Shown here: in pieces, positions 11,326 through 32,921 of the stretch
Layout: each line of letters starts with the position of its first letter
Numbering within the stretch: position 1 is the first letter of the stretch
Origin: Thermoanaerobaculia bacterium
GTDB taxonomy: Bacteria; Acidobacteriota; Thermoanaerobaculia; Gp7-AA8
Assembly: GCA_036009105.1 (NCBI GenBank)
Contig: DASYMJ010000043.1
Coordinates: 25,658-89,657, forward strand
Direction: 5' to 3'
Length of the DNA stretch: 64,000 bases
The notes under the pieces: model-generated
What the model saw: only the letters and a program-made list of their open reading frames with translations
What the model was told of the DNA's origin: nothing
The model's database searches: none
Made by a program: the position numbers and the translations under genes

Positions 11326-11390
11326 GTGTATCCCCGCCCTGACGCCTATCCGCACGGCCATCCCGGGCGTCTGCAAGGAAAGACACTATT

Positions 11391-11427
11391 GCGTGTCTAC
11401 CTTTTTCCATCTAATATCCGCGACCCA
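11391..11427. promoter_or_regulatory. Candidate operator palindrome AGACAC-N6-GTGTCT, next to a TAATAT -10-like hexamer upstream of the NRPS operon
   Basis: The palindrome aAGACACtattgcGTGTCTac sits in a comparatively AT-rich 275-nt intergenic region. TAATAT lies about 14 nt downstream of it. Confidence 0.3.
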
Positions 11428-11487
11428 GGCCGAAACAGAAGGTTAACAGGACATTTCCCAGTAACTACTTGCAAAAAGGGACGAAGC

Positions 11488-12978: not shown

Positions 12979-15233
12979 CCAGAAACCTGCGAGGCGCGCT
13001 CGGCGCGCTCCTGCTCCTTTCCGCCGCGAGCCTGCAGGCGGACGTGCCGCCGCCGCCCGACTCGAGCGCCGTCCTGCGCGTGCCGCGCCTGGCGGTGCAG
13101 CCGCACCTGCAGGACATCATCCCCTCCGGCGCCGCGGGCATGGCGCGGGTGACCGACCTGCGCCAGAACACCCCCAAGGACGGCGAGCCGGTCACCCTCG
13201 GCACCGCCGTCTACCTCGGCTACGACGACACGAACCTCTACGTCGCCTTCGTCTGCCAGGACGAGCCGGACAAGGTGCGGGCCCGCATCACGCGGCGGGA
13301 AGACATCTTCGGCGACGAAGGGGTGCAGATCTTCCTCGACACGTTCCACGACAAGCAGCGCGCGTACGTCTTCGCCGCGAATCCGTTCGGCGTGCAGCTG
13401 GACGGCATCACCACCGAGGGGCAGGGCTACGACTTCAACTTCGACACGCTCTGGTATTCGGAGGGGCGGATCACGAAGGACGGGTTCGCGGTCTTGATGA
13501 CCATCCCGTTCAAGAGCCTGCGCTTCGCGCCGGGGGCGACGCAGCGATGGGGCGTCTCGCTGAGCCGGATCATTCCGCGCAAGAACGAGTTCGTCTACTG
13601 GCCGTGGATCACCGACCGGGTGGAGGGCTTCGTCCCCCAGTTCGCCACCCTGGAGATCGACGAAGCGATCTCGCCCGGCCGCAACTACCAGTTCATCCCG
13701 TACTCGGTGCTGACGCATTCGCGCCTGCTGGAGCCGGGTGGGGCGGGGGCGCTGCGGCCGGCCGGCTACAACAACACCACGCCCGGGCGGGTGGGGCTCG
13801 ATGGCAAGTTCGTGTTGCGCGACTCGCTCGCCGCCGACCTGACCGTCAATCCCGATTTCTCCGAGGTGGAATCGGATGAGCCTCAGGTGATCGTCAACCA
13901 GCGCTTCGAGGTGCTCTTCCCGGAGAAGAGGCCGTTCTTCCTGGAGAACGCCGGCTTCTTCGGGACGCCGATGAACCTCTTCTTCTCCCGCCGTATCGCC
14001 GATCCGCGCATCGGCGCGCGGCTCACCGGACGGGTAGGCAGATGGGCGCTCGGCGGCCTGGCCATCGATGACCGGGAAGGTGGGCTGGGCCTGCCCACCG
14101 ACCATCCCCAGTTCGGGCAGCGGGCGAACATCGGCGTGGCGCGCATGCAGCGCGACTTCGGGCGTCAGTCGAACGCCGGCTTCCTCCTCACCAGCCGGGA
14201 CATCGGCGGCGTCTCCAACCGGGTGGCGGCGTTCGACAGCCGGGTCAAGATCAACGAGAACTGGACGGCGACGGGACAGCTCGGCAAGAGCTGGAACCGG
14301 GGCGGCTTCTTCGGCGACGTCAACGGCACGGCCGGCTACTTCGACGTCAACCGCTCCGGCCGCGTCTTCAACTACGACGGCCAGTACCGCGACATCAGCC
14401 GCGACTTCGTCAGCGACCTGGGGTTCATCCCCCGCACCGACATCCGCCAGACCGAGCATACGGCGAGCCTCAAGCGCTGGGCGGAAGGGACGAAGCTCTT
14501 CAGCTACGGCCCGAGCGTGACCGGCCTGGCCACGTGGGACCACGCGGGCGAGCTGCAGGACTGGCTCGGCTCCGGCTCCTTCAACTTCAACTGGGTGGGC
14601 GGCACGTCGCTCACCCTGACCAGCGACCAGGGGTACGAGCGCTTCGCCGGCCTCGATTTCCGCAAGCACCTGGAGACGGTGTCGGCGCGCACGGAGTGGT
14701 GGAAGTGGCTGACCGCTTCGCTGAGCTACTCGCAGGGGACGGCGGTGAACTACTTTCCCGCCCCCGGCGTCGACCCCTTCCTGGGCGACCGCAGGCAGGT
14801 GGTGGTCGGGTTCACGCTCAGCCCCTTCTCCCGCCTGCGCCTCGACGAGACGCTGATCTACGACGACCTCTACACGCGCAACGCGGTGGCCGGGGTCGAT
14901 GCGGGGAGCCTCGTCTTCCGCAACCCGATCTCGCGGACCAAGGTGAACATGCAGTTCAACCGCTACCTCGCATTGCGGTTGATCGTCGACACGCACGCCA
15001 TCACGCCGGACGAGTCGCTCGTCCTGCTGCCGCGGACGAAGCACGTCACGGGCGATGTGCTCTTCAGCTACGTCCTCAATCCGGGGACCGTGCTCTACCT
15101 CGGCTACTCCGACAACTACGACAACGTCGCGCTTCTGAACGGGCCGCCTTCCCAGGTGGTGGCCACCCATTCGGCGCTCAACCCGACGGCGCGGCAGTAC
15201 TTCATGAAGGTGAGCTACCTGCTCCGGTTCTGA
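12975..15233 (+). CDS. DUF5916/CBM9-like outer-membrane protein
   Basis: The signal peptide is MTRNLRGALGALLLLSAASLQA. The N-terminal CBM9/DOMON-like segment reads LYVAFVCQDEPDKVRARITRREDIFGDEGVQIFLDTFHD. The long beta-rich C-terminus ends in KVSYLLRF, with a terminal Phe typical of OM barrels. The track ORF 12018.. over-extends in frame; the ATG at 12975 overlaps the upstream stop. Confidence 0.6.
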   Translation: MTRNLRGALGALLLLSAASLQADVPPPPDSSAVLRVPRLAVQPHLQDIIPSGAAGMARVTDLRQNTPKDGEPVTLGTAVYLGYDDTNLYVAFVCQDEPDKVRARITRREDIFGDEGVQIFLDTFHDKQRAYVFAANPFGVQLDGITTEGQGYDFNFDTLWYSEGRITKDGFAVLMTIPFKSLRFAPGATQRWGVSLSRIIPRKNEFVYWPWITDRVEGFVPQFATLEIDEAISPGRNYQFIPYSVLTHSRLLEPGGAGALRPAGYNNTTPGRVGLDGKFVLRDSLAADLTVNPDFSEVESDEPQVIVNQRFEVLFPEKRPFFLENAGFFGTPMNLFFSRRIADPRIGARLTGRVGRWALGGLAIDDREGGLGLPTDHPQFGQRANIGVARMQRDFGRQSNAGFLLTSRDIGGVSNRVAAFDSRVKINENWTATGQLGKSWNRGGFFGDVNGTAGYFDVNRSGRVFNYDGQYRDISRDFVSDLGFIPRTDIRQTEHTASLKRWAEGTKLFSYGPSVTGLATWDHAGELQDWLGSGSFNFNWVGGTSLTLTSDQGYERFAGLDFRKHLETVSARTEWWKWLTASLSYSQGTAVNYFPAPGVDPFLGDRRQVVVGFTLSPFSRLRLDETLIYDDLYTRNAVAGVDAGSLVFRNPISRTKVNMQFNRYLALRLIVDTHAITPDESLVLLPRTKHVTGDVLFSYVLNPGTVLYLGYSDNYDNVALLNGPPSQVVATHSALNPTARQYFMKVSYLLRF

Positions 15234-15235
15234 CC

Positions 15236-18200
15236 ATGACCGACAACACCGAAAAGCTGGCCGGACTCTCCAGCGCCAAGCGGGCGCTGCTCGAAAAACT
15301 CGTGGCCGAGCGGCGCGCGGCGGCGGGAGAGGTGCGTCCCCGCCCGCGCCCGGAGCGGGTGCCGCTCTCGTTCGGACAGGAGCGCCTGTGGGTGGTGGAG
15401 CAGCTCGCGCCGGGCAGCGCCGCGTACAACGAGCCGGTCGTGTTGTGGCTCTCCGGCGCGCTCGATGTGGGCGCATTGGAGCGCGCGATCAACGAGGTGG
15501 TGCGGCGGCACGAGTCGTTGCGCACGGCGGCCCCTTCGGAAGGGGGGCGTCCGTTCCAGCGCATCGCTCCGTCTTTGACGGTGCCGTTGGTGCTCGCAGA
15601 GGCGACGTCGGATGAAGGAGCGCTGCAGATGGCCAGCAGTGTGATCGCCGCCTCCTTCGATCTCGCCCGCGGGCCGCTCGTGCGCGCGTTGCTGGTGCGG
15701 GTGGAGGCCGAACGGCACCTGCTCGCCATCGCCGTCCACCATCTCCTGATCGACGGCTGGTCGATCAACGTCGTCCTCGGCGAGCTGGCCCGCCTCTACA
15801 ACGGCGAGGCGCTGCCCGAGCCGCCGCTGCAGTACGCCGACTACGCGCTCTGGCAGCGCGAGTGGCTGGACGGCGAGCGCATGGACCGCCAGCTCGCGCA
15901 CTGGCGCGAGCACCTGGAGGGTTGCCCTTCCACCCTCGACCTCCCGGCCGACCGCCCCCGCCCGCCCGTGCAGAGCTTCAAGGGCTCCGTGGTACGGCAC
16001 CTCATCCCGCCCGACCTGTACGAGGCGATGGAGCAGTTCAGCCGGCGGGAGAACGTCACCCCGTTCATGACGCTCTTCGCCGCCTGGACCACGCTGCTGC
16101 ACCGCCTGACCGGGCAGGAGGATCTGCCGCTGGGCGTGGGCCTGGCCAACCGCCCGCGCGCCGAGCTGGAGTCGATCGTCGGCTTCTTCGTGAACACGCT
16201 CGTGCTGCGCACGCGCTTCGACGGCGCGCCGACGTTCCTCGACCTGCTGGCCCGCGTGCGCGAGACGACGCTCGGCGCGCAGGCCAACCAGGATGCGCCG
16301 CTCAGCCGCGTCCTGGAGTCGATGAAGCTCGACCGCGCGGCGAGCCACATGCCCTTCGTGCAGGTGATGCTCTTCTTCCAGAACTACGCGCAGACGGCGC
16401 TGGCCATGAACGGCCTGCGCGTCTCGCGCGTGCCGCTCGACCTCGTTCATCCCGGCTCCGCGCAGACGGACATCGCGCTCTTCGTCAACCAGGATGCGAC
16501 GGGCGAGCTGCTCTTCCAGTACAGCACCGACCTGTTCGACCGGGAGACCATCGAACGGCTCGCCGGGAACTTTGTGGTGCTGCTGCGCGCGGCCATTGCG
16601 GATGCGTCGCAACCGATCGCGCAGCTGCCGCTGCTCACCGAGGAAGAGCGCGTGCAGCTGGCAAAGTGGAATGACACGCGCGTGCCGTATCACCACGGGC
16701 CGCTCATTTCGCTCGTGCAGGCGGCGAGCGACAAACCGGCCGTCACGTTCCGCGGCCGCACCCTGACCTATGCCGAGTTGCGCGCCAGAGCCTCCGCGCT
16801 GGCGGACGAGCTGCGCGCGAGCGGTGTGAAAGCGGGCGACCTGGTGGGCCTCTTCGTGGAGCGCTCGCTGGAGATGGTGATCGGCATCGTGGCCATCCTG
16901 GAGGCGGGCGGCGCGTACGTGCCGCTCGATCCGTCGTACCCCGCCGAGCGGCTCGCCTTCATGCTCGGCGACGCCGGCGCGAAGGTGGTGGTGACCCAGC
17001 GCGAGCTGCGCGAGCAGGTGCCGGTGCAGGGTGTGGAAGTGGTGATCGCGGACGCGGAAAATGTGGGGGCCGGCTTCAGCCGGCCCGGGCGGGCTGAAGC
17101 CCGCCCCCACGTTGACGACCTCGCCTACGTCATCTTCACCTCCGGCTCCACCGGCCGGCCCAAAGGCGTGCAGATCACGCAGCGCTCCGCGGCGAACCTG
17201 CTGCAGTCCGTGGCGCGAGAACCGGGCATGAACGCGGGCGACACCATCTGCGCCGTCTCCACGCTCTCCTTCGACATCGCCCTGCTGGAGCTCGTGCTGC
17301 CGCTCACCGTCGGCGCGCACATCCTCCTGGCCGACCGCGACACCGTGCGCGACGGCAACGCGCTGGGCCGCCTCGTCGCGAACAACGACGTCACCATCAT
17401 GCAGGCCACCCCGGCCACCTGGCGCATGCTCCTCGACATCGGCTGGCGCGGGAAGCCGGGCCTGAAGATCATCTCCACCGGCGAGGCGCTGCCGCGCGAG
17501 CTGGCCGAGCGCCTCCTGCCCTGCGGCCGCGAGCTGTGGAACCTCTACGGCCCCACCGAGACCACGGTCTACTCCGCCCTCGGGCGCATCGAGTCCGGCA
17601 GCGGCCCCATTTCCATCGGCAGGCCGGTGGCGAACACGCAGATCCACATCGTCGACCGCAACCTGCAGCTCCTCCCGCCCGGCGTCCCCGGCGAGCTGCT
17701 CATCGGCGGCGACGGCCTGGCCCGCGGCTACCTCGGGCGTCCCGACCTCACCGCCGAAAAGTTCATCCCCGATCCGTTCTCCGATCAGCCTGAGGCGCGC
17801 CTCTATCGCGCCGGCGACCTCGCCACGTGGCGGCGCGACGGCACCCTGGAAGTCCTCGGCCGGATGGATCACCAGGTCAAGCTGCGCGGCTTCCGCATCG
17901 AGCTCGGCGAGATCGAAGCCGTGCTGGCCCAGCATGCAGATGTCGAGCAGGCGGTCGTGCACTGCCGTGAAGACCGGCCCGGCGACAAGCGCCTCGTGGC
18001 CTACACCACGGGCGGCGCAAGCACGGACGCGCTGCGCGAGCACCTCCGCAAGTCGCTCCCCGACTACATGATCCCCGCCGCCTTCGTGGCGCTGGAGCAG
18101 TTTCCCCTCACGCCGAACGGCAAGGTGAACCGCCATGCATTGCCGGCACCCGAGGCCTTTGCGGGGGCGGCTGTGGAACCTCCGCAGACGCGGGAGGAGC

Positions 18201-18502
18201 GGGAGATGGCCACGCTGTGGTCCGACCTCCTCGGCCGCCGCGACATCGGACGCAACGACAACTTCTTCGACCTCGGCGGCCACTCCCTCCTCGCCATGCA
18301 GATGCTGGCCCGGCTGGAGAAGGCGACCGGCGTCGAAGTTCCCCTGCGCGTCCTGTTCGACGTGCCCACCGTCGCCACGCTGGCCCGGCACGTGGCCGCC
18401 GTGCGCACGGCCAGCCTGGAGACGGAGAACCTCGACGAGCTGCTGGCCCAGCTGGAGGGGCTCTCCGACGACGAGGCGCTCACACGGAGCCAGCTGTCAT
18501 GA
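15236..18502 (+). CDS. Non-ribosomal peptide synthetase, module 1 (C-A-PCP)
   Basis: C domain motifs are [13 protein letters not shown] and [9 protein letters not shown]. A domain motifs are [87 protein letters not shown] and NGKV. The PCP motif is [13 protein letters not shown]. The real ATG is 3 nt after the DUF5916 stop, and the stop overlaps the NRPS2 start (ATGA). Confidence 0.9.
   Translation: [1088 protein letters not shown]
17063..17110. repeat. 48-nt GC-rich double-hairpin element inserted in frame in the NRPS1 A domain (codes [18 protein letters not shown])
   Basis: GTGGGGGCCGGCTTCAGCCGGCCCGGGCGGGCTGAAGCCCGCCCCCAC is a near-perfect palindrome. It is related to the GGGCCGGCT...AGCCGGCCC family. 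It sits just upstream of the A3 motif. Confidence 0.7.
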
Positions 18503-21500
18503 GTGATACCACGCAACGCATCGCCGACCTCTCGCCGCAGAAGCGCGCGCTCCTGCTCCAGCAGCTGGCGAAGGAGAAGGCCGCGCGCGGCCGCATCGTC
18601 CGCCGCGAGCGCCCCGACCCCCTCCCCCCCTCCTTCGCCCAGCAGCGCCTCTGGCTCCTCGACCAGCTCGAGCCGGGCTCGGCGAGCTACAACGTGCCGG
18701 CCGGCGCCTGGATGCGCGGCAAGCTCGATCTCGACATCCTGCGCCGCTGCCTGGAAGAGCTGGTGCGGCGTCACGAGGCGCTGCGCACCACCGTGCCTTC
18801 TTCGGACGGCCGGCCGCACCAGGTCATCGCCGCGCAGGGGCGCGTCGAGCTGCCGCTGTATCACGCCTCCTCGCGCGCCGAAGCGCGGGCCATCGGGCAG
18901 AAGGAGGCGACGCGGCCGTTCGATCTGGCCAAGGGGCCGCTCATGCGCACGCTGGTGGTGCGCCTGTCCGAGGAGGAGCATCTCCTCGTCTTCAACTTCC
19001 ATCACATCGCCGTGGACGGCTGGTCGTTCAGCGTCCTCTATCGCGAGCTCGGCGCGCTTTACGGGGCGTTCCTGCACGGCCGCCCGTCGCCGTTGCCGGA
19101 GCTGCCCATCCAGTACGCCGACTTTGCGCTCTGGCAGCGCGAGTGGCTGCAGGGCGACGTGCTGAAAGGCCAGCTCGACTACTGGACCGAGCGGCTGAGC
19201 GGCAACATCCCGGTGCTGGAGCTGCCCGGCGACCGCCCCCGGCCGGCGAAGCAGTCCTACCGCGGGGACGTGGTGCGCGTGGTCATCCCCGCGGAGCTGG
19301 TGGCCGCCGCCGCGCAGCGCAGCCGCGAGGAAGGCATCACCCTCTTCATGACCTTCCTCGCCGCGTTGAAGACGCTGCTCTTCCGTTACTCCGGACAGAC
19401 CGACGTCGTGGTCGGCTCCGGCATCGCCGGCCGCAACCGGGAAGAGCTGGAGCCGCTGGTCGGCTACTTCGTCAACACGCTCGCCTTGCGCACGGACCTC
19501 TCCGGCAATCCGACGTTCCGCGAGCTGCTGGCCCGCATCCGGGAGACGACCCTCGGCGCGTACGCGCATCAGGACCTGCCGGTGGAGCGGCTGATCGAGG
19601 AGCTCCACGTGGAGCGCTCCCTCGGCCACTCGCCGCTCTTCCAGGTGATGGTCTTCTTCCAGAACATGCCGCATCAGAAGCTGGAGCTGCCCGGCATCAC
19701 GCTCGAGCCGCTGCAGATGGACGAGGTCAACTCCGAGACTGCGCGCACCGATCTGGCGCTGTTCGTCGAGCGGCATGACGACGGCCTGGCCATCCTCTTC
19801 GAGTACAGCACCGACCTGTTCGACGAGGAGACCGTGCGCGCGTTCGGCGAGCACCTGGTGGTGCTGCTGCGCGCCGCGGTGGCGAATCCCGATACGAAGA
19901 TCGGCGAGCTGCCGCTGCTGACCGATGCCGAGCGGCACACGCTGCTCGTTTCCCGTACCGCGAACGCGGCGCCGGTTCCGTCCGCCACGCTCTCCTCGCT
20001 GTTCGAGCAGCAGGTGGCGCGCACGCTGGAGGCGACGGCGCTGATCTTCCCCGAGCGCCGGCTGACGTATCGCGAGCTGGACGAGCGGGCGAACGGCTTC
20101 GCCGCCGAGCTGCAGTCGCGAGGCGCGAAGCCGGGCGAGCTGGTCGGCATCTACACCGACCGCGGCCCGGAGATGGCGATCGCTCTGCTGGGCATCCTCA
20201 AGTCGGGCGCGGCCTACCTGCCGCTCGACCCCACCTATCCGCCCGACCGACTCGCCTTCATGCTCTCGGACACCGGCGCGCGGCTGGTCGCGACGCAGAA
20301 GCACCTGCGCGATGAGGTGCCGTCGAAGGATGTGGAGCTGGTCTTCGTGGACGCATGTCATCCTGAGGGCAGCGAAGGATCCCCCGGCTCAGGCGGCGCA
20401 CGTGCCGGGAGATCCTTCGCCGTCTCCGCGGCTCAGGATGACACCCCGCGCGCCACGCCCGACGACACCGCCTACGTCATCTTCACCTCCGGCTCCACCG
20501 GCAAGCCCAAGGGCGTGCAGATCCCTCATCGCGGCGCGGTGAACTTTCTCCTGGCCATGCTGGAGGCGCCGGGGCTCACGCCGGCGGACACCGTCTGCGC
20601 CATCACCACCCTCTCCTTCGACATCTCCGTCCTGGAGCTCCTCCTCCCGCTGATCATCGGCGCGAAGGCGGCGGTCAGCGACCGGGCCACGGCCACGGAC
20701 GGCAAGCGCCTCGCGCAGTTCATCAGGGACAGCGGCTCCACCGTCGTCCAGGCCACGCCCGCCTCCTGGCGCATGCTCCTCGACGCCGGCTGGGAAGGCG
20801 TGCCCGGGCTGAAGATCCTCTGCGGCGGCGAGCCGCTGCCGCGCGACCTGGCCGACCTCCTCCTGGCCCGGGTGGGGGAGCTGTGGAATGTCTACGGCCC
20901 TACCGAGACCACGGTCTGGTCGGTGCTCGACCGCGTGCTGCCGGACCAGCCGATCACCATCGGCAAGCCGATCCGCAACATGCGCATGTACGTCGCCGAC
21001 GCGAACATGCAGCTCGTCCCGGACGGCGTCCCCGGCGAGCTCCTCATCGGCGGCCTCGGCCTCGGCCACGGCTACGTCAACCGCCCCGAGCTCACCGCCG
21101 ACCGCTTCATCCCCGATCCGTTCAGCGGCATCGAAGGGGCGCGCCTTTACCGCAGCGGCGACATCGCCCGCTGGAGACGAGACGGCCGCCTGGAGATCCT
21201 CGGCCGCTCCGACGGCCAGGTGAAGCTGCGCGGCTTCCGCATCGAGCTGGGCGAGATCGAAGGCGCCCTGCGCGAGCACGCCGCGGTGCGCCAGGTGGTC
21301 GTCGTGCTGCGCGAGGACCGGCCGGGCGACAAGCGCCTCGTGGCCTACGTGGTTCCTCACCAGGCCGCGCCGGCCACGAACGAGCTCCGCGCGCATCTCC
21401 GCGCCATGCTCCCCGACTACATGATCCCCAGCGCGTTCGTCGTGCTGGAGAAGCTGCCCATCTCCCCCAACGGCAAGGTGGACCGCCGCGCGCTGCCTAT

Positions 21501-21834
21501 GCCCGAGCTCTCGGACATCAACGAAGTGGCCGCTCCCGTTGCGCCGCGCACGGCGGAAGAGGAGCAGCTGGCCGAGATCTGGGCCGACGTCCTCGGCCTC
21601 CCCGCGGTCGGCATCGACGACGACTTTTTCGTGCTCGGCGGCCACTCATTGCTGGCCACGCAGCTCATCGCCCGCGTCGGCCGCACGTTCGGCGTCGACC
21701 TGCCGCTGCGCCGGCTCTTCGAAGCGCCGACCGTCGCCTCGTTCGCCGCGGTGCTCGTGACCGAGATGATGTCGACCCTCAACGCGCTGAGCGAGGACGA
21801 GCTGCAGGCGCTCCTGGGAGGGCAGGCTCCTTGA
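18499..21834 (+). CDS. Non-ribosomal peptide synthetase, module 2 (C-A-PCP)
   Basis: C domain motifs are [13 protein letters not shown] and [10 protein letters not shown]. A domain motifs are [51 protein letters not shown] and NGKVDR. The PCP motif is [13 protein letters not shown]. Confidence 0.9.
   Translation: [1111 protein letters not shown]
20357..20442. repeat. MITE-like hairpin element (GTCATCCTGAG...CGAAGGATCC family) inserted in frame in the NRPS2 A domain
   Basis: The element is gtcatcctgagggcagcgaaggatcc-ccc-ggctcaggcggcgcacgtgccgggagatccttcgccgtctccgcggctcaggatgac, with terminal inverted repeats. It encodes [30 protein letters not shown] immediately upstream of the A3 motif. Confidence 0.75.
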
Positions 21835-21845
21835 CCGCCGAGTCG

Positions 21846-24800
21846 ATGGCCGCGCGCCTGGCGCGCCTCACCCCGCAGGAGCGCGCCCGGCTCCTGCGCA
21901 GCGCCGCCGCTCGCGCGACGGCCGTTCCCCGCCGCCCGGCCGGGCAGAACGAGCTGCCGCTCTCGCCCGCGCAGCAGCGGATGTGGTTCCTGGAACAGCT
22001 GCAGCCGGGCGCGTATCACTCCTACGACTTCACGCGCCTCATCGGTCCGGTCGATGTGGCGCGCCTCGACGCCGCCTTCCGGGAGATCGTCCGCCGCCAC
22101 GAGGCGCTGCGCACATCGTTCGTCAGCGTGGACGGCACGCCGCGGCAGCTCGTGCACGATGAGGTGCCGTTCTCCATCGCCTCCGTCACCGTGGAGGATC
22201 CCGAGGGTTTCGCGGACGCGGAGACCCTGCGCCCGTTCGATCTCACCCGGGCGCCTTTGCTGCGCGTGACGCTCGTGAACGGGCAACTGCTGCTGGTCAC
22301 GCTGCATCACATCATCTCGGACGGCTGGTCGCTCGGCGTCCTCGATCAGGAGCTGCGCGCGCTGTACGCCGGTGCGTCGCTGCCGGAGCTGCCGGTGCAG
22401 TTCGGCGACGTCGTGTTGTGGCAGCAGTCGCGGACCGGGGAAGGCGTGGACTGGTGGAAGCAGACGCTGAGCGGCGTTCCCGACGTGCTCGACCTGCCCG
22501 CCGACCACCCGCGGCCGGCCGTGCAATCCTTCCGCGGCGCGCGCGTCACGCACACGGTTTCGCCTTCGCTTCTCGCGGAGCTGAACGAGCTCGCCCAGCG
22601 CGAACACGTCACGCTGTTCATGCTCCTGGTCGCCGCCTTCGACGTGCTGCTCTACCGCCACACCGGCCAGAGCGAGTTCGCCGTCGGGACGCCGGTCGCG
22701 AACCGCACGCCGGAGACCGAGCCGCTGATCGGCCTCTTCATCAACACCATCGCCCTGCGGGCGAACCTGAGCGACGACCCATCGTTCCGCGAGCTGCTCG
22801 GGCGCGTGCGCGAGACGTCCCTCGAAGCGTTCGCCCATCAGGACGTGCCGTTCGACCGTGTGGTCGACGCCCTCGCATTACCGCGCAACGCCAATCGCAC
22901 GCCGCTCTACCAGACCATGATCGTCCTCGGCGCGGGGCAGGGGAGCTACGCGCCGCTGGGCGACATCGAGCGGGTGCCGTATCACCCCCACTCCGCCTCC
23001 GCGCGCTTCGACCTGACGCTGTCGATGGCCATCGACGAGACCGGCCTGGTCTGCCTCTTCGACTACGCGGCCGATCTGTTCGATCCGGCCACCGTCGAGG
23101 CCTTCGCGCGCCGCTACGAGATGCTGCTGCGCGGCGCGGCGGCTGATCCGAATACGGCGGTGTCTCGGCTGCCGCTGATGGATGCCGCCGAGCGCGGTGT
23201 CATCCTGAGCCGCGCGGCCGGCGAAGGATCCGTACCGCTCCTGCGCGATACGACGCTCCACGCACTTTTCCAGGAACAGGCCGCCCGCACGCCCGACACG
23301 CCCGCGGTGAACGACGTGACGTACGGGGAGCTCGACCGCTGGTCGGACGAGATCGCCGCCACCATCGACACCCACCTCGTCCCCTTCCTCGCCGACCGCA
23401 CGCCGGCCGCGATCGCGCAACTGCTCGGCATCCTCAAGGCGGGCGCCGCCTACCTCCCCATCGATCCCGCCACGCCGCGGGAGCGCCTCGACTGGCTCGT
23501 CGCGGACAGCAAGTCGGTGGCGCCGGGCGACAACGCATACGTGATCTACACCTCCGGTTCCACCGGCACGCCGAAAGGCGTCGTGGTCAGCCACCGCTCC
23601 GCGGTCAACCTGACCCTGGCTTTCGCGCAAAGCCATCAGTTTGCAGGTCACCGCCTGCTGATGATCCCGCCGCTGCACTTCGACGCCTCGGTGGGCGACG
23701 TCTTCCCCGCCCTCGCCACCGGCGCGACGCTCATCCTCCATCCGTCGCCCGCCGACCTCGACGCCCGCGCGCTGGCCCGCTTCTGCAACGAGCAGGGCGT
23801 CACCGCCATCGACGCGCCGGCCGCGCTCTGGCGCCGCTGGGCCGCGGAGTGGCAGCCCATCCCCGCGCTGCGCCTGATGATGGTGGGCGGTGAGTCGGTG
23901 CCGGTGGATGAAGTGCGCCGCTTCGCGCGCCTGACGAACAACCAGGTCCGCTTCGTCAACCACTACGGCCCGACCGAAGCGACGGTCTGCGCCACGACCT
24001 ATCACACCGTCGACGCGAGCGAGTGCACCACGACCGAGCTCCCCATCGGCAAGCCGATCGCGAACGTCTCCGCATACGTCCTCGACCAGCACCTCCAGCC
24101 GGTGCCGCGGGGCATCGCGGGCGAGCTGTACATCGGCGGCGCCGGCGTGGCGCGCTATCACGGCCGGGAAGAGTTCCTCCCCAACCCGTTCGGCGAGGGC
24201 CGCCTCTATCGCACCGGCGACCTGGCCCGCCGCCTCGCCTCGGGCGACCTCCTCTTCCTCGGCCGCGCCGACCGGCAGATCAAGCTGCGCGGCTTCCGCA
24301 TCGAGCCGGGGGAGATCGAGGCCGCCATCCTCGCCCACGCCGGCATCCGCGCTGCGATCGTGATCAAGCGCGAGGAGCGGCTCGTCGCCTATGTCGTCGG
24401 CGAGACGGAGCTGCAGTTGCACGACCGCCTGCCGGAGTACATGGTGCCGTCCGCGATCGTGCGCCTCGAGGCGCTCCCGCTGACGAGCAACGGCAAGGTG
24501 GACCTCAACGCGTTGCCCGCTCCCCCCCGCACGACCACCAGTTCCCGCGCGCCCCGCAACGAGACGGAGCGCGAGCTGCTGCGCATCTGGTGCGAGGTGT
24601 TGCAGGCAGACGGCCTCGGCATCGACGACTTCTTCGCGCACGGCGGCGACTCCCTCCGCACCATGCCCCTGGTGTTCAAGGTGCGGGAGCGCTTCGGCGC
24701 CGACCTCCCGCTCAGCTCCGTCTTCCGCGCCCCGACCGTGGCGCGCTTCGCCGCGCTCCTCACGCACGGAGCGCAGGCGGACGATCTGGAATCGAAAATC

Positions 24801-25886
24801 GGCACGTTCCGGGCGCCGGCCATCCGGCGCGCAAACATGCCGCCGAAGAACGTCCTCATCACCGGCGCCACCGGCTTCCTCGGCGCGTTCCTCCTCGACG
24901 AGCTGCAGCGCTCCACGAACGCCACCATCTACGCGCTCGTCCGCGCGGCGAACAAGGCAGACGCGATGCGTCGCATCCGGGAGAACCTCGCTTCTTACGG
25001 TCTGACGCCGGATGAGAAACGCATCGTTCCTCTGCTCGGAGACCTGGCCGAGCCGGGTCTCGGCATCACCGAGAACCTGGACGCCATCGACGTGATCTAT
25101 CACAACGGCGGCGCGGTGAACTTCATCGCGCCGTACGAGCGCCTCGCCGCGGCGAACGTGGACGGCACCCGCACGGTGCTGGCCATGGGCCGGCCGGTGC
25201 ACGTCGTCTCCACCCTGGGCGTCCATTTCACCAAGCCGCGCATCGGCCAAGTGGTGACCGAACAGGATCCCCTGCCGCCCGGCAAAGACATCCTGGGCGG
25301 CTACAACGAGACGAAGTGGGTCGCCGACCGCGTGGCCCAGCTGGCCCGCGAGGCCGGCGTGCCGGTCTCCATCCATCGCCCGGCGCGCATCACCGGCGAC
25401 AGCCGCACTGGCGCGCTCAACCCGGCCGATCTCTTTTACAGCTGGATCAAAGGCTGCGTGCAGCTGGGCAGCTTCCCGGACGACGCGCCGCTGCTGAACA
25501 TGGCGCCGGTCGACCACATCGCCCGCTCCATCGTCGCAATCTCCCTGCACATCGAGCAACCGGCCGACTACCACTACTTCAACAACCGCATGCTGCCGCT
25601 GGAGACGCTCGTCTCCACGCTCCGCCGCCGCGGCTTCGAAGCCTCCATCAAGCCGTACCGGCAGTGGATCGAACAGCTGCGCCACGCGCCGGAGAACCCG
25701 CTGGCGAAGTACCTGGCTCTGATGGAAGAGCCGGACCAGGGCGAGCCGGTGTTCGACTGCACGCGCACCGAAAACGCGCTGGCCCGGCTCGGCATCCTCT
25801 GTCCGGCGGCGGATGAAGCCCTGCTCGGCCTCTACCTCGACCAGCTCCTGCCCGAGCCGGCCATCGCCATGAAAGGACACCCATGA
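21846..25886 (+). CDS. Non-ribosomal peptide synthetase, module 3 with terminal thioester reductase (C-A-PCP-R)
   Basis: C domain motifs are [13 protein letters not shown] and [10 protein letters not shown]. A domain motifs are [81 protein letters not shown] and NGKVDL. The PCP motif is [12 protein letters not shown]. The R domain has [15 protein letters not shown] and GGYNETKW (Y...K). The start could instead be TTG 21831, overlapping the NRPS2 stop. The stop overlaps the MFS gene's ATG. Confidence 0.85.
   Translation: [1346 protein letters not shown]
23199..23250. repeat. Half-copy (left arm plus part of centre) of the MITE-like GTCATCCTGAG element in the NRPS3 C-A linker
   Basis: gtcatcctgagccgcgcggccggcgaaggatccgtaccgctcctgcgcg matches the left half of the full element at 29315-29410. 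It encodes [17 protein letters not shown]. Confidence 0.6.
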
Positions 25887-27196
25887 CCCGCCGCCGCGCA
25901 TTTCTCTGGATCTGGATCGGGCAGCTGATCTCCGTGATCGGCTCGCGCCTTTCCACGTTCGCCGTCGGCATCTGGGTCCTGCAGAAGACCGGCTCGACGA
26001 CGCAGTACGCCTTCATCTTCATCTGCATGGCCGTGCCGGCCCTGCTCCTCGCGCCGTTCGCCGGCGCGCTCGTCGACCGCTGGGACCGGCGCAAGGTGAT
26101 GATCGCCGCCGACGCGCTGGCCGCCTTCACCGTGCTCGGCCTCGGCATGCTGCTCTACCTCGACGCGCTCGAGCTGTGGCAGATCTACGTCGCCGCCGGC
26201 CTGCAGGCGGTCGCCACCGGCTTCCAGATCCCCGCCTACATGGCCAGCATCCCGCTGCTCGTGCCGAAGGAGCAGCTCGCCCGCGCGAACGGCATGGTGC
26301 AGACCGCGTTTGCCGCCGCGCAGATCGTCGGCCCCGCGCTGGCAGGCGTGCTGGTGAGCACCATCTCGCTCTACGGCGTCCTGTTCGTCGACTTCGTCAC
26401 GTTCGTGGCCGGCATCATCGCCCTCCTCGTGGTCGACGTCCCGCGCCCCGCGGCCGGCGAGCACGAAGAGAAGGCGCCAGCGCTGTGGCAGGAGGCGGCG
26501 GAAGGCTTCCGCTTCGTCCGCGAGCGGGGCGGCCTCCTCGGCCTGCTCACCCTCTTCGGTTTCACGAACTTCCTCTTCGGCATCGTCAGCATCCTCATCA
26601 CGCCGATGGTCCTCTCCTTCACGAACGCCGCGGGCCTCGGCATGCAGATGTCGATCGGCGGCTGCGGCCTGCTCCTGGGCGGCGTCCTGATGAGCGCCTG
26701 GGGCGGCCCGAAGCGGCGCATCCACGGCGTGCTCGCCTCCACCGTGTTCGCCGGCCTGATGCTGGCCATGCACGGCCTGCGCGCGGACATCTGGTTCGTC
26801 TCGGCGATGGGCTTCTTCTTCTTCATCTCCCTGCCGATCATGAACGCCTCCCAGGATTCGATCTGGCAGACCAAGGTGCCGGCCGCGCTGCAGGGGCGCT
26901 GCTTCGCCATCCAGCGCGTTTTGTCCGAGGCGGCGATGCCGATCGGTTTCTGCATCGCGGGCCCGCTGGCGGATCGCGTGTTCGAGCCGCTCCTGAGGCC
27001 GGGCGGTCCGCTGGCCGATTCCGTCGGCCGCGTGATCGGCGTCGGCCCCGGACGCGGCATCGCCCTGATCTTCATCGTCTCGGGCTTGACCATGGCGCTG
27101 GCCGGACTGGTCGGCTACGCCATGCGCGGGCTGCGCAACGTCGAGACCGATCTTGCCGACGCGCCGGTCGAGCCGGCGCCCGCTGTCGCTGCATGA
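25883..27196 (+). CDS. MFS transporter (EntS/macrolide-efflux-like), probable product exporter
   Basis: 437 aa with 12 predicted TM helices. The N-terminus MTRRRAFLWIWIGQLISVIGSRLSTFAVGIWVL is typical of the enterobactin-exporter EntS family. Its start overlaps the NRPS3 stop. Confidence 0.8.
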   Translation: MTRRRAFLWIWIGQLISVIGSRLSTFAVGIWVLQKTGSTTQYAFIFICMAVPALLLAPFAGALVDRWDRRKVMIAADALAAFTVLGLGMLLYLDALELWQIYVAAGLQAVATGFQIPAYMASIPLLVPKEQLARANGMVQTAFAAAQIVGPALAGVLVSTISLYGVLFVDFVTFVAGIIALLVVDVPRPAAGEHEEKAPALWQEAAEGFRFVRERGGLLGLLTLFGFTNFLFGIVSILITPMVLSFTNAAGLGMQMSIGGCGLLLGGVLMSAWGGPKRRIHGVLASTVFAGLMLAMHGLRADIWFVSAMGFFFFISLPIMNASQDSIWQTKVPAALQGRCFAIQRVLSEAAMPIGFCIAGPLADRVFEPLLRPGGPLADSVGRVIGVGPGRGIALIFIVSGLTMALAGLVGYAMRGLRNVETDLADAPVEPAPAVAA

Positions 27197-27210
27197 GTCC
27201 CGGAGAATCT

Positions 27211-27990
27211 ATGAGCGCAGACGACACTCACGAAAAAGCAATGGCCGCCGGTTGCCCCCACGCCACGCGCGCCGCGAGCCTTTCCATCCGTTCCGAGTCC
27301 CCCTCGGCGCCGGTCTCGCCCGAGCTTTTCACCATCAACCAGGTGGAGACGCTGATGGCGCCCGAGCATCCGCTGGCCGTCACCGCCAAATGGATGCGCC
27401 GTTTCCTGGCCCGGCCGCATCGCGAGCTCGGCCGCCCCGGCCCGGTCTGCCCCTTCGTCCCCGGCGCCATCGTGCAGGACACCATCTGGATGGCCGACTG
27501 CTCCCTCGGGCGCGGCGACCGGCAGGCCATCATCGAGATCATCGGCCTCTTCCGCGACCTCTTCCTCAACCTAGAGCCGAAGGGGGGCGATGCCGCGGCC
27601 TGGAAGGCGATGGTCATCGTCTTCCCGAACGTAGCCATCGAAGACGCGGATGTGATCGACCAGGTGCAGTCGGAGCTGAAAGCGCGCTTCGTCGACGCCG
27701 GCCTCATGATCGGCGAGTTCCACGAGCGGAACGAGAGCCCCGGCCTGCGCAACGACAACTTCCGCCCGCTGCGCAGCCCCATCCCGGCCCTGGCCATCCG
27801 CCACATGGTGGAGACCGACCTGCCGTTCCTCTACCGCACCCTCTATCCGCCGCCGTTGCGCGCGGAGTTCATCCGCTCCTATCTGCGCCGCCTGGGCGGC
27901 ACGATCAGCCGCAACAACTTCGACGCGGCGCTCGACGCGCTCGTGCTGGCGGAGATCGCCATCCGCACTCCGGAAGAGGTGACGACCTGA
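27211..27990 (+). CDS. Conserved hypothetical protein (259 aa) co-transcribed between the MFS exporter and KMO
   Basis: The ATG at 27211 lies behind a GGAG RBS. The track ORF 26176.. over-extends in frame. I recognise no known catalytic motif. Sequence landmarks are PGPVCPFVPGAIVQDTIWMADCSLGRGDRQAIIEIIGLF and FHERNESPGLRNDNFRPLRSPIPALAIRHMVETDLPF. Confidence 0.55.
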   Translation: MSADDTHEKAMAAGCPHATRAASLSIRSESPSAPVSPELFTINQVETLMAPEHPLAVTAKWMRRFLARPHRELGRPGPVCPFVPGAIVQDTIWMADCSLGRGDRQAIIEIIGLFRDLFLNLEPKGGDAAAWKAMVIVFPNVAIEDADVIDQVQSELKARFVDAGLMIGEFHERNESPGLRNDNFRPLRSPIPALAIRHMVETDLPFLYRTLYPPPLRAEFIRSYLRRLGGTISRNNFDAALDALVLAEIAIRTPEEVTT

Positions 27991-27992
27991 CC

Positions 27993-29306
27993 ATGGATCA
28001 CGTCGCGGTCATCGGCGGCGGGCTGGCCGGCTCGCTCTTCGCGCTGCGCCTGGCCCGGCAGGGGCATCGCGTCGACGTGTACGAGCGGCGTCCCGATCCG
28101 CGCCTGCGCCGCGGCGAAGGCGGCCGGTCGATCAACCTGGGCCTTTCCAAGCGCGGCATCGCCGCGCTGGGCGAGGTCGGCCTGCGCGAGGAGGTGCTCT
28201 CGCTCGCCGTGCCGATGGAGGGCCGCGTGATCCACACCCTGGACGGCGTGGAGCGCTTCCAGCCGTACGGCAAGAACCGCCAGGAAGTGCTGCACTCCAT
28301 CGACCGCAACGAGCTGAACGACCTGCTCCTCGATCGCGCCGAGGCTCATTCGCAGGTGCGTCTGCACTTCGAGCATCGCTGCGTCGGCGTCGATGCTGCC
28401 GCGCGCACCATCCTGGTCGCGGATGCTTCCGGCGCGGTCAGGCCGGTCAGCGCCGACTGGGCGGTCGGCGCGGATGGGGCGTTCTCCAAGATCCGGGAGG
28501 AGATGCAGCGCGGCCAGCGGGCGAACTTCAGCAAGGAGTTCCTGGAGTGGGGCTACAAGGAGCTGAACCTCCCCGCCCGCGCCGACGGCACTTCGCAGCT
28601 GCGCCTGAACGCCCTGCACGTGTGGCCGCGGGGCCACTGCCTCATCGTGTCCCACGCCAACCGCAACGGCTCGCACACCCTGACGCTGTTCCTGCCGTTT
28701 GAAGGCGCCGACAGCTTCGCCACCCTGCGCACGCCATCCGACATCAGCTCCTTCTTCGCCCGCTACTTCCCCGACCTCGTGCCGCTGTTGCCCGAGCTGC
28801 TGTCGCAGTGGGAGAGCCACCCGGTCGGCTCGCTCGTCACCACCCGCACCACGCCGTGGCACCTGGCGGATTGGATCGTCCTCGTCGGCGATGCCTGCCA
28901 CGCCGTCTATCCGTTCTACGGGCAGGGGATGAACTCCGCGTTCGAGGACTGCTCCGCCCTCGCCGCCGCCCTGGCCGCCCACCCGGCCCGCCTGGATGCC
29001 TTTCGCGCCTACGAGCGCTCCCGCCGCCCCCACACCGACACGCTGGCCGAGCTCTCCAAGGAGAACTTCGTCGAGCTCCGCCAGCGCGTGCAGTCGCCCC
29101 TTTTCGTCCTGCGCAAACGGATGGACGTCTGGCTCAACCGCCTCGCGCCGTCGACCTGGCTCCCCCTCTACACGATGATCGCCCACACCACGATGCCGTA
29201 CGGCGACGCCCTGGCCCGCGCGCGGCGGCAGGACCGGTTGCTGTTGTCGCTGGCCGGCGCCTGCGGGGTGGCAGTGCTGGGGGCGCTGGCGCTGCTATTG
29301 GGGTAA
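27993..29306 (+). CDS. kmo: Kynurenine 3-monooxygenase (FAD-dependent), with a hydrophobic C-terminal tail
   Basis: The FAD fold is VAVIGGGLAGSLFAL. KMO-specific segments are YERRPDPRLRRGEGGRSINLGL, NALHVWPRGHCLI and VLVGDACHAVYPFYGQGMNSAFEDC. These closely match the Pseudomonas KMO motifs FERRPDPR/RGRSINLAL, NALHIWP and [23 protein letters not shown]. The C-terminal 22 aa (LLLSLAGACGVAVLGALALLLG) are hydrophobic. The start is 3 nt after the upstream stop. Confidence 0.85.
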   Translation: MDHVAVIGGGLAGSLFALRLARQGHRVDVYERRPDPRLRRGEGGRSINLGLSKRGIAALGEVGLREEVLSLAVPMEGRVIHTLDGVERFQPYGKNRQEVLHSIDRNELNDLLLDRAEAHSQVRLHFEHRCVGVDAAARTILVADASGAVRPVSADWAVGADGAFSKIREEMQRGQRANFSKEFLEWGYKELNLPARADGTSQLRLNALHVWPRGHCLIVSHANRNGSHTLTLFLPFEGADSFATLRTPSDISSFFARYFPDLVPLLPELLSQWESHPVGSLVTTRTTPWHLADWIVLVGDACHAVYPFYGQGMNSAFEDCSALAAALAAHPARLDAFRAYERSRRPHTDTLAELSKENFVELRQRVQSPLFVLRKRMDVWLNRLAPSTWLPLYTMIAHTTMPYGDALARARRQDRLLLSLAGACGVAVLGALALLLG

Positions 29307-29410: not shown

Positions 29411-29414
29411 ACCC

Positions 29415-32824: not shown

Positions 32825-32836
32825 TGGCTTCTCCGT

Positions 32837-32920: not shown

Positions 32921-32921
32921 A

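What the first reader, a model, noticed from the sequence alone, without database searches (positions are those of the whole stretch)
27211..27990. Unrecognised 259-aa protein wedged between the exporter and KMO: candidate new tailoring or precursor enzyme
The gene sits 15 nt after the MFS stop behind a GGAG RBS and ends 3 nt before kmo, so it is expressed with KMO. It has none of the motifs of the usual kynurenine-pathway partners. There is no TDO heme-helical pattern, no kynurenine formamidase HxGTHxDxPxH, no kynureninase PLP lysine motif, and none of thioesterase GxSxG, PPTase or MbtH. Conserved-looking segments are GPVCPFVPGAIVQDTIWMADCSLGRGDRQAIIEIIGLF and RNDNFRPLRSPIPALAIRHMVETDLPFLYRT. 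If KMO supplies a hydroxylated aromatic unit, this protein is the prime candidate for the missing step, for example making or modifying the KMO substrate.
Basis: inference. Interest (0 to 1): 0.55.

Follow-up and report, generated by a model that had tools for sequence, protein, structure and literature searches.

The report
Heme tryptophan N-hydroxylase in NRPS operon
The "unrecognised" 259-aa protein is a member of the recently described cytochrome P422 (DUF6875) family of cysteine-ligated heme enzymes, most likely hydroxylating tryptophan at the indole nitrogen to feed an orphan peptide-synthetase operon found in many soil bacteria.

Summary

KMO follows the gene in 57 of 75 testable loci across at least three phyla, and NRPS genes are present in 73 of 80. 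The third NRPS module carries an invariant code, DAGDMGHVC.

The idea that this protein makes the KMO substrate is untested and less likely, because KMO-less variants keep that code.

Verdict: new member of a known kind. The cassette's product, the KMO role and the P422-YqcI/YcgG fold link are undescribed in the literature searched.

The parts
27211..27990 (+). Cytochrome P422 (DUF6875) gene, 259 aa plus stop; predicted L-Trp N1-hydroxylase
   Evidence: ORF and translation. Pfam PF21780 E 5.3e-57, 193 bits against a cut-off of 24.5. 514 homologues, all PF21780 among the 120 listed. AF2 model pLDDT 87.3, pTM 0.81.
27202..27205 (+). GGAG ribosome-binding site, 5 nt upstream of the ATG
   Evidence: Read directly from the sequence.
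27253..27258 (+). Cys15-Pro16 in the disordered N-terminal tail (GCPHA), resembling a heme-regulatory motif; function unknown
   Evidence: 66 of 121 homologues carry CP in this otherwise variable tail, against about 11 expected from shuffling. Residues 1-32 have pLDDT below 50.
27433..27453 (+). Heme-binding region R75-P-G-P-V-C80-P81 (family motif RxGxVCP); Cys80 is the predicted axial thiolate ligand
   Evidence: Motif defined in the preprint. R75, V79, C80 and P81 are invariant, and G77 at least 90% conserved, in 121 sequences.
27658..27681 (+). SBR2 D150-QV-Q153-SEL-K157 (Dx2(Q/H)x3K), the carboxylate anchor for Trp; Gln is the hydroxylase-type residue
   Evidence: Lies in predicted helix 147-162.
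27706..27720 (+). SBR3 M166-I-G-E-F170 (MxGxF), the hydrophobic side of the indole clamp
   Evidence: Lies in predicted strand 165-170.
27799..27828 (+). SBR1 R197-H-M-V-E-T-D203-L-P-F206 (Rx(M/L)x3Dx2F), the pi-cation Arg and gating Phe; identical to the SBR1 of tested enzyme Lc584
   Evidence: Spans strand 193-198 and helix 201-207.
27993..29306 (+). KMO-family FAD monooxygenase, 437 aa, translationally coupled to the P422 gene
   Evidence: PDB phmmer best hit is P. fluorescens KMO, E 4.7e-88, residues 3-418. Pfam FAD_binding_3. Pocket residues compared.
25883..27196 (+). MFS exporter, 437 aa
   Evidence: Pfam MFS_1 E 1e-34; NCBIfam H+ antiporter and Mef-like models. Lies immediately upstream of P422 in 60 of 80 loci.
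21831..25886 (+). NRPS module 3, C-A-T-R with a terminal reductase; A-domain code DAGDMGHVC
   Evidence: Pfam domains, start candidates, code.
18499..21834 (+). NRPS module 2, C-A-T; A-domain code DILQLGVVW (Gly-like)
15236..18502 (+). NRPS module 1, C-A-T, starting with a C domain; A-domain code DILQITLVY (small pocket)
12975..15233 (+). DUF5916-domain protein, translationally coupled to the GT87 gene and NRPS1; recurs with the cassette in other phyla
   Evidence: Pfam hit, GC3 frame profile, start candidates, tblastn in L038-L066.
11260..12978 (+). GT87-family membrane glycosyltransferase-like protein; first gene of the tightly packed 8-gene operon
   Evidence: Pfam GT87 E 8e-18. Homologues lie downstream of KMO in seven Oxalobacteraceae loci.

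Best explanation
The gene encodes a cytochrome P422 (DUF6875) enzyme, a small alpha/beta sandwich protein that binds b-type heme through the thiolate of Cys80. [quoted passage not shown] It would then activate O2 to a Compound I-like oxidant and hydroxylate free L-tryptophan. The substrate would be held by Q153 and K157 at its carboxylate and clamped at the indole by R197, M166 and F170. The predicted position of attack is the indole nitrogen, giving 1-hydroxy-L-tryptophan. That amino acid, or an O-methylated or further oxidised form of it, is the probable substrate of the third NRPS module, whose specificity code DAGDMGHVC is invariant. The three-module, reductase-terminated NRPS would then release a short peptide aldehyde or alcohol, and the adjacent MFS pump would export it.

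Shown here: family membership, motif conservation, the predicted fold, operon structure and cassette conservation. Taken from the literature: heme binding and Trp N1-hydroxylation by tested relatives. Inferred: the regiochemistry of this particular protein, that module 3 loads its product, and the role of the KMO.
For: Pfam DUF6875 at E 5e-57. All four published motifs are present and invariant or nearly so in 121 homologues. They map onto the secondary-structure elements described for Mc170: SBR2 in a helix, SBR3 in a strand, and the SBR1 Arg on a strand followed by a helix.

The preprint's Table S5 lists Lc584 (L. capsici AZ78, 271 aa), Ls910 (Lysobacter Root604, 285 aa), Rr391 (Rugamonas rubra, 256 aa) and Os274 (cyanobacterium M33_DOE_097, 242 aa) as 1-OH enzymes. 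The matching sequences in my data are P0122 (the AZ78 protein, 271 aa), L052 (an in-frame ATG gives 256 aa) and L067 (242 aa). P0135 (285 aa, unclassified Lysobacter) is the likely counterpart of Ls910 but is matched by length and genus only.

L052 and the Lysobacter loci carry the same NRPS-R / MFS / P422 / KMO cassette. In an NJ tree the window protein's clade is sister to the clade holding Lc584, the Ls910-like protein and Rr391, and Os274 lies outside both. SBR1 (RHMVETDLPF) is identical to that of Lc584. SBR2 has Gln rather than His, the hydroxylase type according to the preprint.

Against: No experiment has been done on this protein. It is only 46-55% identical to the tested enzymes. The preprint reports clades with mixed regiochemistry, so N1, C6 and C7 cannot be called from sequence with certainty. 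I could not place reference 6-OH or 7-OH enzymes in the tree. Identification of the tested enzymes rests on strain name and length, not on accession matching. No ferredoxin or ferredoxin reductase is encoded in the 64-kb window. The substrate of the DAGDMGHVC A domain is unknown, and no literature match was found. The tight, conserved coupling to a KMO homologue is not explained by a simple Trp to 1-OH-Trp to NRPS scheme. The preprint's data are in vitro with surrogate redox partners and have not been peer reviewed.
Confidence: 0.7

Rival explanations
1. P422 and the KMO homologue act in tandem on one Trp-derived unit. This is a version of the first reader's idea. The KMO-like flavoenzyme might hydroxylate 1-hydroxy-Trp, for example at C7, which is ortho to the nitrogen as in kynurenine. 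Alternatively, P422 might N-hydroxylate kynurenine or 3-hydroxykynurenine. Either way the NRPS would load a doubly oxidised amino acid.
For: The two genes are 2 nt apart, and KMO follows P422 in 57 of 75 testable loci across phyla. Only one of the three A domains has a large pocket (G239, G301), so there is probably only one aromatic position in the peptide. No TDO or formamidase is present in the window to supply kynurenine locally. All 58 cassette KMOs keep the amino-acid anchoring residues R84, Y98, N369 and Y404. They differ consistently from P. fluorescens KMO in the aromatic pocket: L226H in 58 of 58, H320Y/F, M373L and I224V.
Against: Tested relatives need only L-Trp and give 1-OH-Trp. 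KMO-less variants (L055, L065) keep the identical module-3 code, so the loaded unit does not obviously depend on KMO. Kynurenine could come from housekeeping TDO elsewhere in the genome. The pocket substitutions may simply reflect lineage divergence. The roles assigned to the PfKMO residues come from my memory of the literature.
Confidence: 0.2
2. The protein has the same family and mechanism but different regiochemistry. It would be a Trp C7- or C6-hydroxylase, like AcmE, MymH and ZigI or like Ss890.
For: The family contains all three activities with the same motifs, and mixed clades exist. O-methyltransferases next to P422 in some variants resemble the ZigI/ZigH pair of C7-hydroxylase and methyltransferase.
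Against: All four characterised enzymes that I could place are 1-OH, and they bracket the window protein in the tree. SBR1 is identical to that of Lc584. C7-hydroxylation followed by TDO would yield 3-hydroxykynurenine and make the conserved KMO redundant (preprint logic).
Confidence: 0.08
3. The enzyme acts late, on a carrier-bound or released peptide rather than on free L-Trp, as an on-line or post-assembly tailoring hydroxylase.
For: The gene lies after the NRPS and exporter genes. In the related-fold family, AglA prefers a peptide-like substrate (AMPn-Arg) over free arginine.
Against: The carboxylate-anchoring residues Q153 and K157 are invariant, which argues for a free alpha-carboxylate. 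Tested relatives turn over free L-Trp. The invariant unusual module-3 code suggests selection of a pre-modified amino acid.
Confidence: 0.07

Closest known systems
Cytochrome P422 Trp N1-hydroxylases Lc584 (Lysobacter capsici AZ78), Ls910 (Lysobacter sp. Root604) and Rr391 (Rugamonas rubra); bioRxiv 10.64898/2025.12.11.692455
   Same: Same Pfam family and the same four motifs. SBR1 is identical to that of Lc584. Where the loci were fetched (R. rubra L052 and several Lysobacter loci), the gene neighbourhood is the same: NRPS with terminal reductase, MFS, P422, KMO. The module-3 A-domain code is also the same.
   Different: Only 46-55% identical. The window protein comes from an Acidobacteriota or Thermoanaerobaculia-like genome. 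It carries an N-terminal GCPHA tail that the Lysobacter proteins lack and that was cut from the Rr391 construct. It has not been tested.
Mc170 (Mucilaginibacter corticis), the crystallised P422 Trp N1-hydroxylase (PDB 9X39 according to the preprint)
   Same: Cys-ligated heme and the same HBR and SBR1-3 motifs. The four-stranded sheet with flanking helices matches the AF2 model's four strands and helices.
   Different: Mc170 is 213 aa and has no N-terminal extension. Its structure was not in the PDB copies available here, so no direct superposition was possible.
P422 C7-hydroxylases AcmE, MymH, Sd870 (the Tsk8 homologue) and ZigI (actinomycin, mycemycin, tasikamide, zigralone pathways)
   Same: Same family and the same proposed Compound I chemistry on the indole of Trp or a Trp derivative.
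   Different: These attack C7, and their product lets the pathway bypass KMO. Here a KMO homologue is conserved next door, and the nearest tested relatives are N1-hydroxylases.
[quoted passage not shown]
   Different: Only 7% identity, with no sequence or profile hit. It acts on arginine guanidine groups, not on indole. It belongs to a different Pfam family, and neither paper cites the other family.
Cytochrome P450 monooxygenases
   Same: The mechanism is similar: a thiolate-ligated heme, O2 activation, and electrons from ferredoxin and ferredoxin reductase.
   Different: No P450 Pfam hit and an unrelated, much smaller fold. The CO complex absorbs at 422 nm rather than 450 nm according to the preprint.

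Membership tests
Cytochrome P422 / DUF6875 (PF21780) | Match to the Pfam family model above its gathering score | tested here: met
   193.2 bits against a cut-off of 24.5, E 5.3e-57, covering profile positions 4-172 of 178.
Cytochrome P422 / DUF6875 (PF21780) | Heme-binding region RxGxVCP with the axial Cys | tested here: met
   R75-P-G-P-V-C80-P81. R75, V79, C80 and P81 are invariant in 121 homologues.
Cytochrome P422 / DUF6875 (PF21780) | Substrate-binding regions SBR1 Rx(M/L)x3Dx2F, SBR2 Dx2(Q/H)x3K and SBR3 MxGxF | tested here: met
   RHMVETDLPF (197-206), DQVQSELK (150-157) and MIGEF (166-170). The key residues are invariant.
Cytochrome P422 / DUF6875 (PF21780) | Alpha/beta sandwich fold: a central four-stranded sheet enclosed by helices | tested here: met
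   The AF2 model (pLDDT 87.3) has four strands (92-96, 133-137, 165-170, 193-198) flanked by helices. A direct comparison with Mc170 was not possible because the structure is not in the libraries.
Cytochrome P422 / DUF6875 (PF21780) | Binds b-type heme; the reduced CO complex absorbs at 422 nm | not testable with these tools
   Needs purified protein. Reported for 84 family members in the preprint.
P422 subgroup: L-Trp N1-hydroxylases | Forms 1-hydroxy-L-tryptophan from L-Trp | not testable with these tools
   Supported only indirectly. Three tested 1-OH enzymes fall in the sister clade, one of them (Rr391) in a fetched locus with the same cassette, and a 1-OH outgroup brackets the window protein.
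Kynurenine-pathway partners (TDO, kynurenine formamidase, kynureninase) | Match to the corresponding Pfam or NCBIfam models | tested here: not met
   The only Pfam hit at E up to 1 is DUF6875, and there is no NCBIfam hit.
YqcI/YcgG heme N-hydroxylases (AglA-like) | Sequence membership, by Pfam model or profile similarity | tested here: not met
   No YqcI/YcgG Pfam hit at E up to 1. The profile of 121 homologues does not find AglA in the PDB sequences. Only the fold is shared.
Cytochrome P450 | P450 Pfam domain and fold | tested here: not met
   No Pfam hit and no P450 among the structural neighbours.
Kynurenine 3-monooxygenase (the neighbouring gene 27993-29306) | Full-length similarity to solved KMOs and conservation of the residues that bind the amino-acid part of L-kynurenine (R84, Y98, N369, Y404 in P. 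fluorescens numbering, recalled from the literature) | tested here: met
   E 4.7e-88 over residues 3-418. All four residues are conserved in 58 of 58 cassette KMOs. The pocket positions L226H, H320Y and M373L differ, and the actual substrate was not tested.

The most novel reading that the evidence does not exclude
The eight-gene operon GT87 - DUF5916 - three NRPS genes - MFS - P422 - KMO may be an undescribed biosynthetic system shared by horizontal transfer. It is found in Acidobacteriota, Lysobacterales, Oxalobacteraceae and Anaerolineae. In this reading the P422 heme enzyme and a specialised KMO-like flavoenzyme (invariant His at the position of PfKMO L226) act in tandem on tryptophan. Together they would make a doubly oxidised amino acid not known from any natural product. 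The invariant DAGDMGHVC adenylation domain would load it, and it would be released as a reactive N-hydroxyindole peptide aldehyde. A second, separate reading is that P422 and the YqcI/YcgG enzymes form one previously unlinked superfamily of non-P450 thiolate-heme N-oxygenases.
Probability: 0.25. Interest if true: 0.65.

Novelty: new member of a known kind. Interest (0 to 1): 0.4.

Why it matters
For the gene itself, the annotation changes from "hypothetical protein" to a specific, testable enzyme: a thiolate-heme tryptophan N1-hydroxylase. It also extends the P422 family into Acidobacteriota.

The context is more interesting than the gene. The enzyme sits in an orphan cluster conserved across at least three phyla of soil bacteria. 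Its third module has an invariant and so far unassigned A-domain code, and a KMO-like partner is conserved beside it. The P422 preprint does not mention that partner.

The preprint predicts that peptides containing N1-hydroxy-Trp are widespread but undiscovered. This cassette occurs in cultivable Lysobacter, Janthinobacterium and Rugamonas strains, which makes it a practical place to find one. The fold match to AglA also suggests that two enzyme families, each published as a unique fold, are related.

Tried and rejected
- **FANCF hit:** a single-sequence PDB search gave Fanconi anemia protein F at E 1e-3. A profile of 121 homologues did not reproduce it, and no FANCF appeared among the structural neighbours listed. 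I rejected it as chance.
- **Mc170 structure:** I looked for PDB 9X39 by sequence and by fold. It is not in the available copies, so no direct superposition was possible.
- **Exact-sequence look-up:** the window protein is not on record.
- **Reference 6-OH and 7-OH enzymes:** a second homologue search seeded with the cyanobacterial Os274 sequence was meant to recover these for a tree. None could be identified among the 120 listed hits.
- **Literature on the cluster:** I searched for the A-domain codes, for 1-hydroxytryptophan natural products, and for a Lysobacter NRPS/kynurenine cluster. Nothing relevant turned up.
- **afdb50 fold search:** the library was not available.
- **Genes downstream of KMO:** in Lysobacteraceae these are housekeeping genes such as thrS, infC and an aminotransferase, so they are not part of the cassette. 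The YjbR-like ORF 29406-29735 has no counterpart in the other loci.
- **First regex extraction of A-domain codes:** it misplaced positions 278, 299 and 301. I replaced it with a MAFFT-based extraction.
- **Saframycin resemblance:** the NRPS layout recalls the saframycin type (module, Gly module, aromatic module plus reductase). This rests on memory only and was not tested.
- **KMO as redox partner for P422:** I considered this and found no supporting evidence.

Full report
**1. Observation**

It runs from ATG 27211 to TGA 27988-27990 and encodes 259 aa. The MFS gene stops at 27194-27196, so the gap is 14 nt. A GGAG sits 5 nt before the ATG. The next gene's ATG is at 27993, 2 nt after the stop. 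Third-position GC is 0.91. Homologues 83-91% identical align from residue 1. The gene and its start codon are therefore sound.

**2. Identity of the protein**

The protein is not unrecognised. It matches Pfam PF21780 (DUF6875) at E 5e-57. It has no NCBIfam hit. The only PDB sequence hit is a weak one to FANCF, which a 121-sequence profile did not reproduce, so I treat it as chance.

A full-text search for DUF6875 found two papers.
- The bioRxiv preprint 10.64898/2025.12.11.692455 (December 2025) renames the family "cytochrome P422". The members bind b-type heme through a cysteine thiolate and give a 422-nm CO complex. With ferredoxin, ferredoxin reductase and NADPH they hydroxylate L-Trp at N1, C6 or C7, or they form a C-S bond in thienodolin biosynthesis.
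- A 2026 JACS paper (PMC13307353) reports that deleting zigI, which encodes a DUF6875 protein, leads to accumulation of a demethoxylated product. The authors propose that ZigI is a C7-hydroxylase.

The preprint defines four motifs: RxGxVCP, Rx(M/L)x3Dx2F, Dx2(Q/H)x3K and MxGxF. The window protein has all four:
- RPGPVC80P
- R197HMVETDLPF
- D150QVQSELK
- M166IGEF

Their key residues are invariant in 121 homologues.

**3. Structure**

An AlphaFold2 model built on 121 sequences has pLDDT 87.3 and pTM 0.81. Residues 1-32 are disordered. The core has four strands flanked by helices. The motifs fall on the element types the preprint describes: SBR2 in a helix, SBR3 in a strand, and the SBR1 Arg on a strand followed by a helix.

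AglA belongs to the YqcI/YcgG family. It is a Cys44-ligated heme enzyme with a "sandwich" fold that N-hydroxylates arginine. This is independent support for a thiolate-heme N-oxygenase. It also suggests a relationship between the two families that neither paper mentions.

**4. Genomic context in the window**

The gene is the seventh of eight tightly packed genes on the + strand. All junctions overlap or are separated by 2-14 nt.

| Gene | Coordinates | Notes |
|---|---|---|
| GT87-like | 11260-12978 | first gene of the operon |
| DUF5916 | 12975-15233 | |
| NRPS1 (C-A-T) | 15236-18502 | starts with a C domain |
| NRPS2 (C-A-T) | 18499-21834 | |
| NRPS3 (C-A-T-R) | 21831-25886 | terminal reductase |
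| MFS | 25883-27196 | exporter |
| P422 | 27211-27990 | this finding |
| KMO homologue | 27993-29306 | |

The KMO homologue is a real family member, matching P. fluorescens KMO at E 4.7e-88 over its full length. In the ORFs with coding-like GC3 that I scanned across the 64-kb window there is no TDO, formamidase, kynureninase, ferredoxin or ferredoxin reductase.

**5. Conservation of the cassette**

A scan of one genome per species returned 554 relatives, and I examined the 80 closest loci. This sample is biased toward close relatives of the query.
- NRPS sequence is present in 73 of 80 loci.
- An MFS gene lies immediately upstream in 60.
- Of the 75 loci with at least 1.5 kb downstream, 57 have the KMO homologue. 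It is adjacent in 55, and an O-methyltransferase lies between in L066 and L072.

Carriers include Acidobacteriota and Thermoanaerobaculia, many Lysobacterales, Janthinobacterium, Rugamonas and Duganella, Ahniellaceae and an Anaerolineae MAG. L001 and L002 are 84-85% identical in P422 and 88-92% in KMO, so the window probably comes from this group.

Of the 19 loci without KMO, 17 are cyanobacterial or uncultured. Where an A domain lies within reach in these (16 loci), its code is DPWxxGxID. The other two are variants of the cassette: L055, where an MBOAT gene follows, and L065, where an O-methyltransferase follows.

GT87 and DUF5916 homologues recur downstream of KMO in seven Oxalobacteraceae loci. 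DUF5916 also recurs in four Acidobacteriota-type loci. These two genes therefore belong to the conserved cluster.

**6. NRPS specificity**

I aligned the A domains to a GrsA fragment that I recalled from memory. The fragment is self-consistent with the published residue numbering. The resulting codes are:
- Module 1: DILQITLVY, a small pocket.
- Module 2: DILQLGVVW, close to the Gly code as I remember it.
- Module 3: DAGDMGHVC, a roomy and polar pocket.

The module-3 code is identical in every cassette locus where module 3 lies within the fetched flank, including the two without KMO. I found no literature match for it. The peptide probably has a single aromatic position. Its building block tracks P422, which is always present, more closely than KMO.

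**7. Regiochemistry**

The preprint's Table S5 lists four relevant enzymes as 1-OH: Lc584 (L. capsici AZ78, 271 aa), Ls910 (Lysobacter sp. Root604, 285 aa), Rr391 (Rugamonas rubra, 256 aa) and Os274 (cyanobacterium M33_DOE_097, 242 aa). I matched them to my data by strain and length, not by accession:
- The AZ78 protein of 271 aa is P0122.
- The R. rubra ATCC 43154 locus L052 has an in-frame ATG that gives exactly 256 aa.
- The M33_DOE_097 locus L067 encodes 242 aa.
- P0135 (285 aa, unclassified Lysobacter) is a likely but unconfirmed counterpart of Ls910.

L052 and the Lysobacter loci carry the same cassette. In an NJ tree the window's Acidobacteriota clade is sister to the clade containing Lc584, the Ls910-like protein and Rr391. 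The Os274 clade lies outside both. SBR1 is identical to that of Lc584, and SBR2 has Gln, the hydroxylase type.

N1-hydroxylation of free L-Trp is thus the best-supported activity, but it remains an inference. I could not add 6-OH or 7-OH reference enzymes to the tree. The preprint also notes mixed clades.

**8. The KMO question**

All 58 cassette KMOs keep R84, Y98, N369 and Y404, and also L213, F238, P318 and F319 of P. fluorescens KMO. I recall the first four from the literature as the residues that bind the amino-acid part of kynurenine. The same 58 enzymes consistently carry L226H, H320Y/F, M373L, I224V and M222L/F.

This fits a free aromatic amino acid as substrate. It leaves open whether that substrate is kynurenine or a P422 product. 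The preprint points out that C7-hydroxylating P422s bypass KMO. A conserved KMO next to an N1-type P422 is a different and undescribed pairing. The preprint's neighbourhood analysis lists TDO, kynureninase, tryptophanase, PRAI, IGPS and NRPS, but not KMO.

I rate the tandem model at about 0.2. The simple model, in which P422 supplies 1-OH-Trp to module 3, I rate at about 0.7 for the enzyme's own function.

**9. Verdict**

The claim of novelty for the protein is outdated, and the proposed link to the KMO substrate is unproven. The gene is a new member of a known kind.

Four points remain undescribed in the literature I could search:
- the product of this widespread orphan operon;
- the P422-KMO pairing;
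- the conserved N-terminal Cys-Pro motif (66 of 121 homologues against about 11 expected);
- the fold link to YqcI/YcgG enzymes.

Interest: 0.4.

Noticed in passing
[not shown]
   Followed up: partly
window 27253-27258 (Cys15-Pro16); alignment A2: A Cys-Pro dipeptide, mostly in the form GCPH(A/S), is conserved in the otherwise variable and predicted-disordered N-terminal tail of 66 of 121 homologues. Shuffling predicts about 11. It resembles a heme-regulatory motif. The active Rr391 construct lacks this tail, and the Lysobacter proteins lack the motif.
   Followed up: partly
window 11260-15233; L038, L042, L044, L047, L052, L058, L061 (about 12.3-16.2 kb); L059, L064, L065, L066: A GT87-like membrane glycosyltransferase gene and a DUF5916 gene (with a CBM9 domain in L065 and L066) are translationally coupled upstream of NRPS1 in the window. 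At 41-53% identity they recur downstream of KMO in Oxalobacteraceae, and DUF5916 recurs in other Acidobacteriota loci. They appear to belong to the same conserved cluster. Their role is unknown.
   Followed up: partly
L066 10814-11929, L072 10993-12075, L065 10820-11875; L055 11224-12681 and L019, L032, L051, L054: Variant cassettes exist. A COMT-type O-methyltransferase is inserted between P422 and KMO in L066 and L072. In L065 it follows P422 and there is no KMO. An MBOAT acyltransferase follows P422 directly in KMO-less L055 and lies downstream of KMO in L019, L032, L051 and L054. The methyltransferase suggests that the P422-installed hydroxyl is methylated in some lineages.
   Followed up: partly
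window 23958 region (NRPS3 A domain) and every cassette locus where module 3 is within the fetched flank: The module-3 specificity code DAGDMGHVC is identical across Acidobacteriota, Gamma- and Betaproteobacteria and an Anaerolineae MAG, including the loci without KMO. No match was found in the searchable literature, so its substrate is unassigned. Cyanobacterial P422 genes sit next to a different code, DPWxxGxID.
   Followed up: partly
window 27993-29306 and 57 loci: All 58 cassette KMO homologues differ from P. fluorescens KMO at the same pocket positions: L226H (58 of 58), H320Y/F, M373L, I224V and M222L/F. They keep the residues that anchor the amino-acid part of the substrate. This may be a specialised subfamily with an altered substrate.
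   Followed up: partly
window 15236-25886: The NRPS is split into three single-module genes with overlapping stop and start codons: C-A-T, C-A(Gly-like)-T and C-A-T-R. It begins with a C domain, so a lipo-initiation step or an upstream donor is possible. From memory, the layout recalls the saframycin-type SfmA/B/C system. This was not tested.
   Followed up: no
window 29406-29735 (+) and 29750-34043 (-): A YjbR-like ORF follows KMO after a gap of about 100 nt, but it has no counterpart in any related locus. An AcrB-type RND pump and a HlyD-family adaptor lie convergently downstream. Both are probably outside the cluster.
   Followed up: partly
L031, L034, L039, L041, L048: In these Lysobacteraceae loci, modules 1 and 2 lie directly upstream of MFS-P422-KMO. 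No module 3 or R domain falls within the 10-kb flank. The gene order is rearranged, or module 3 is encoded elsewhere.
   Followed up: no
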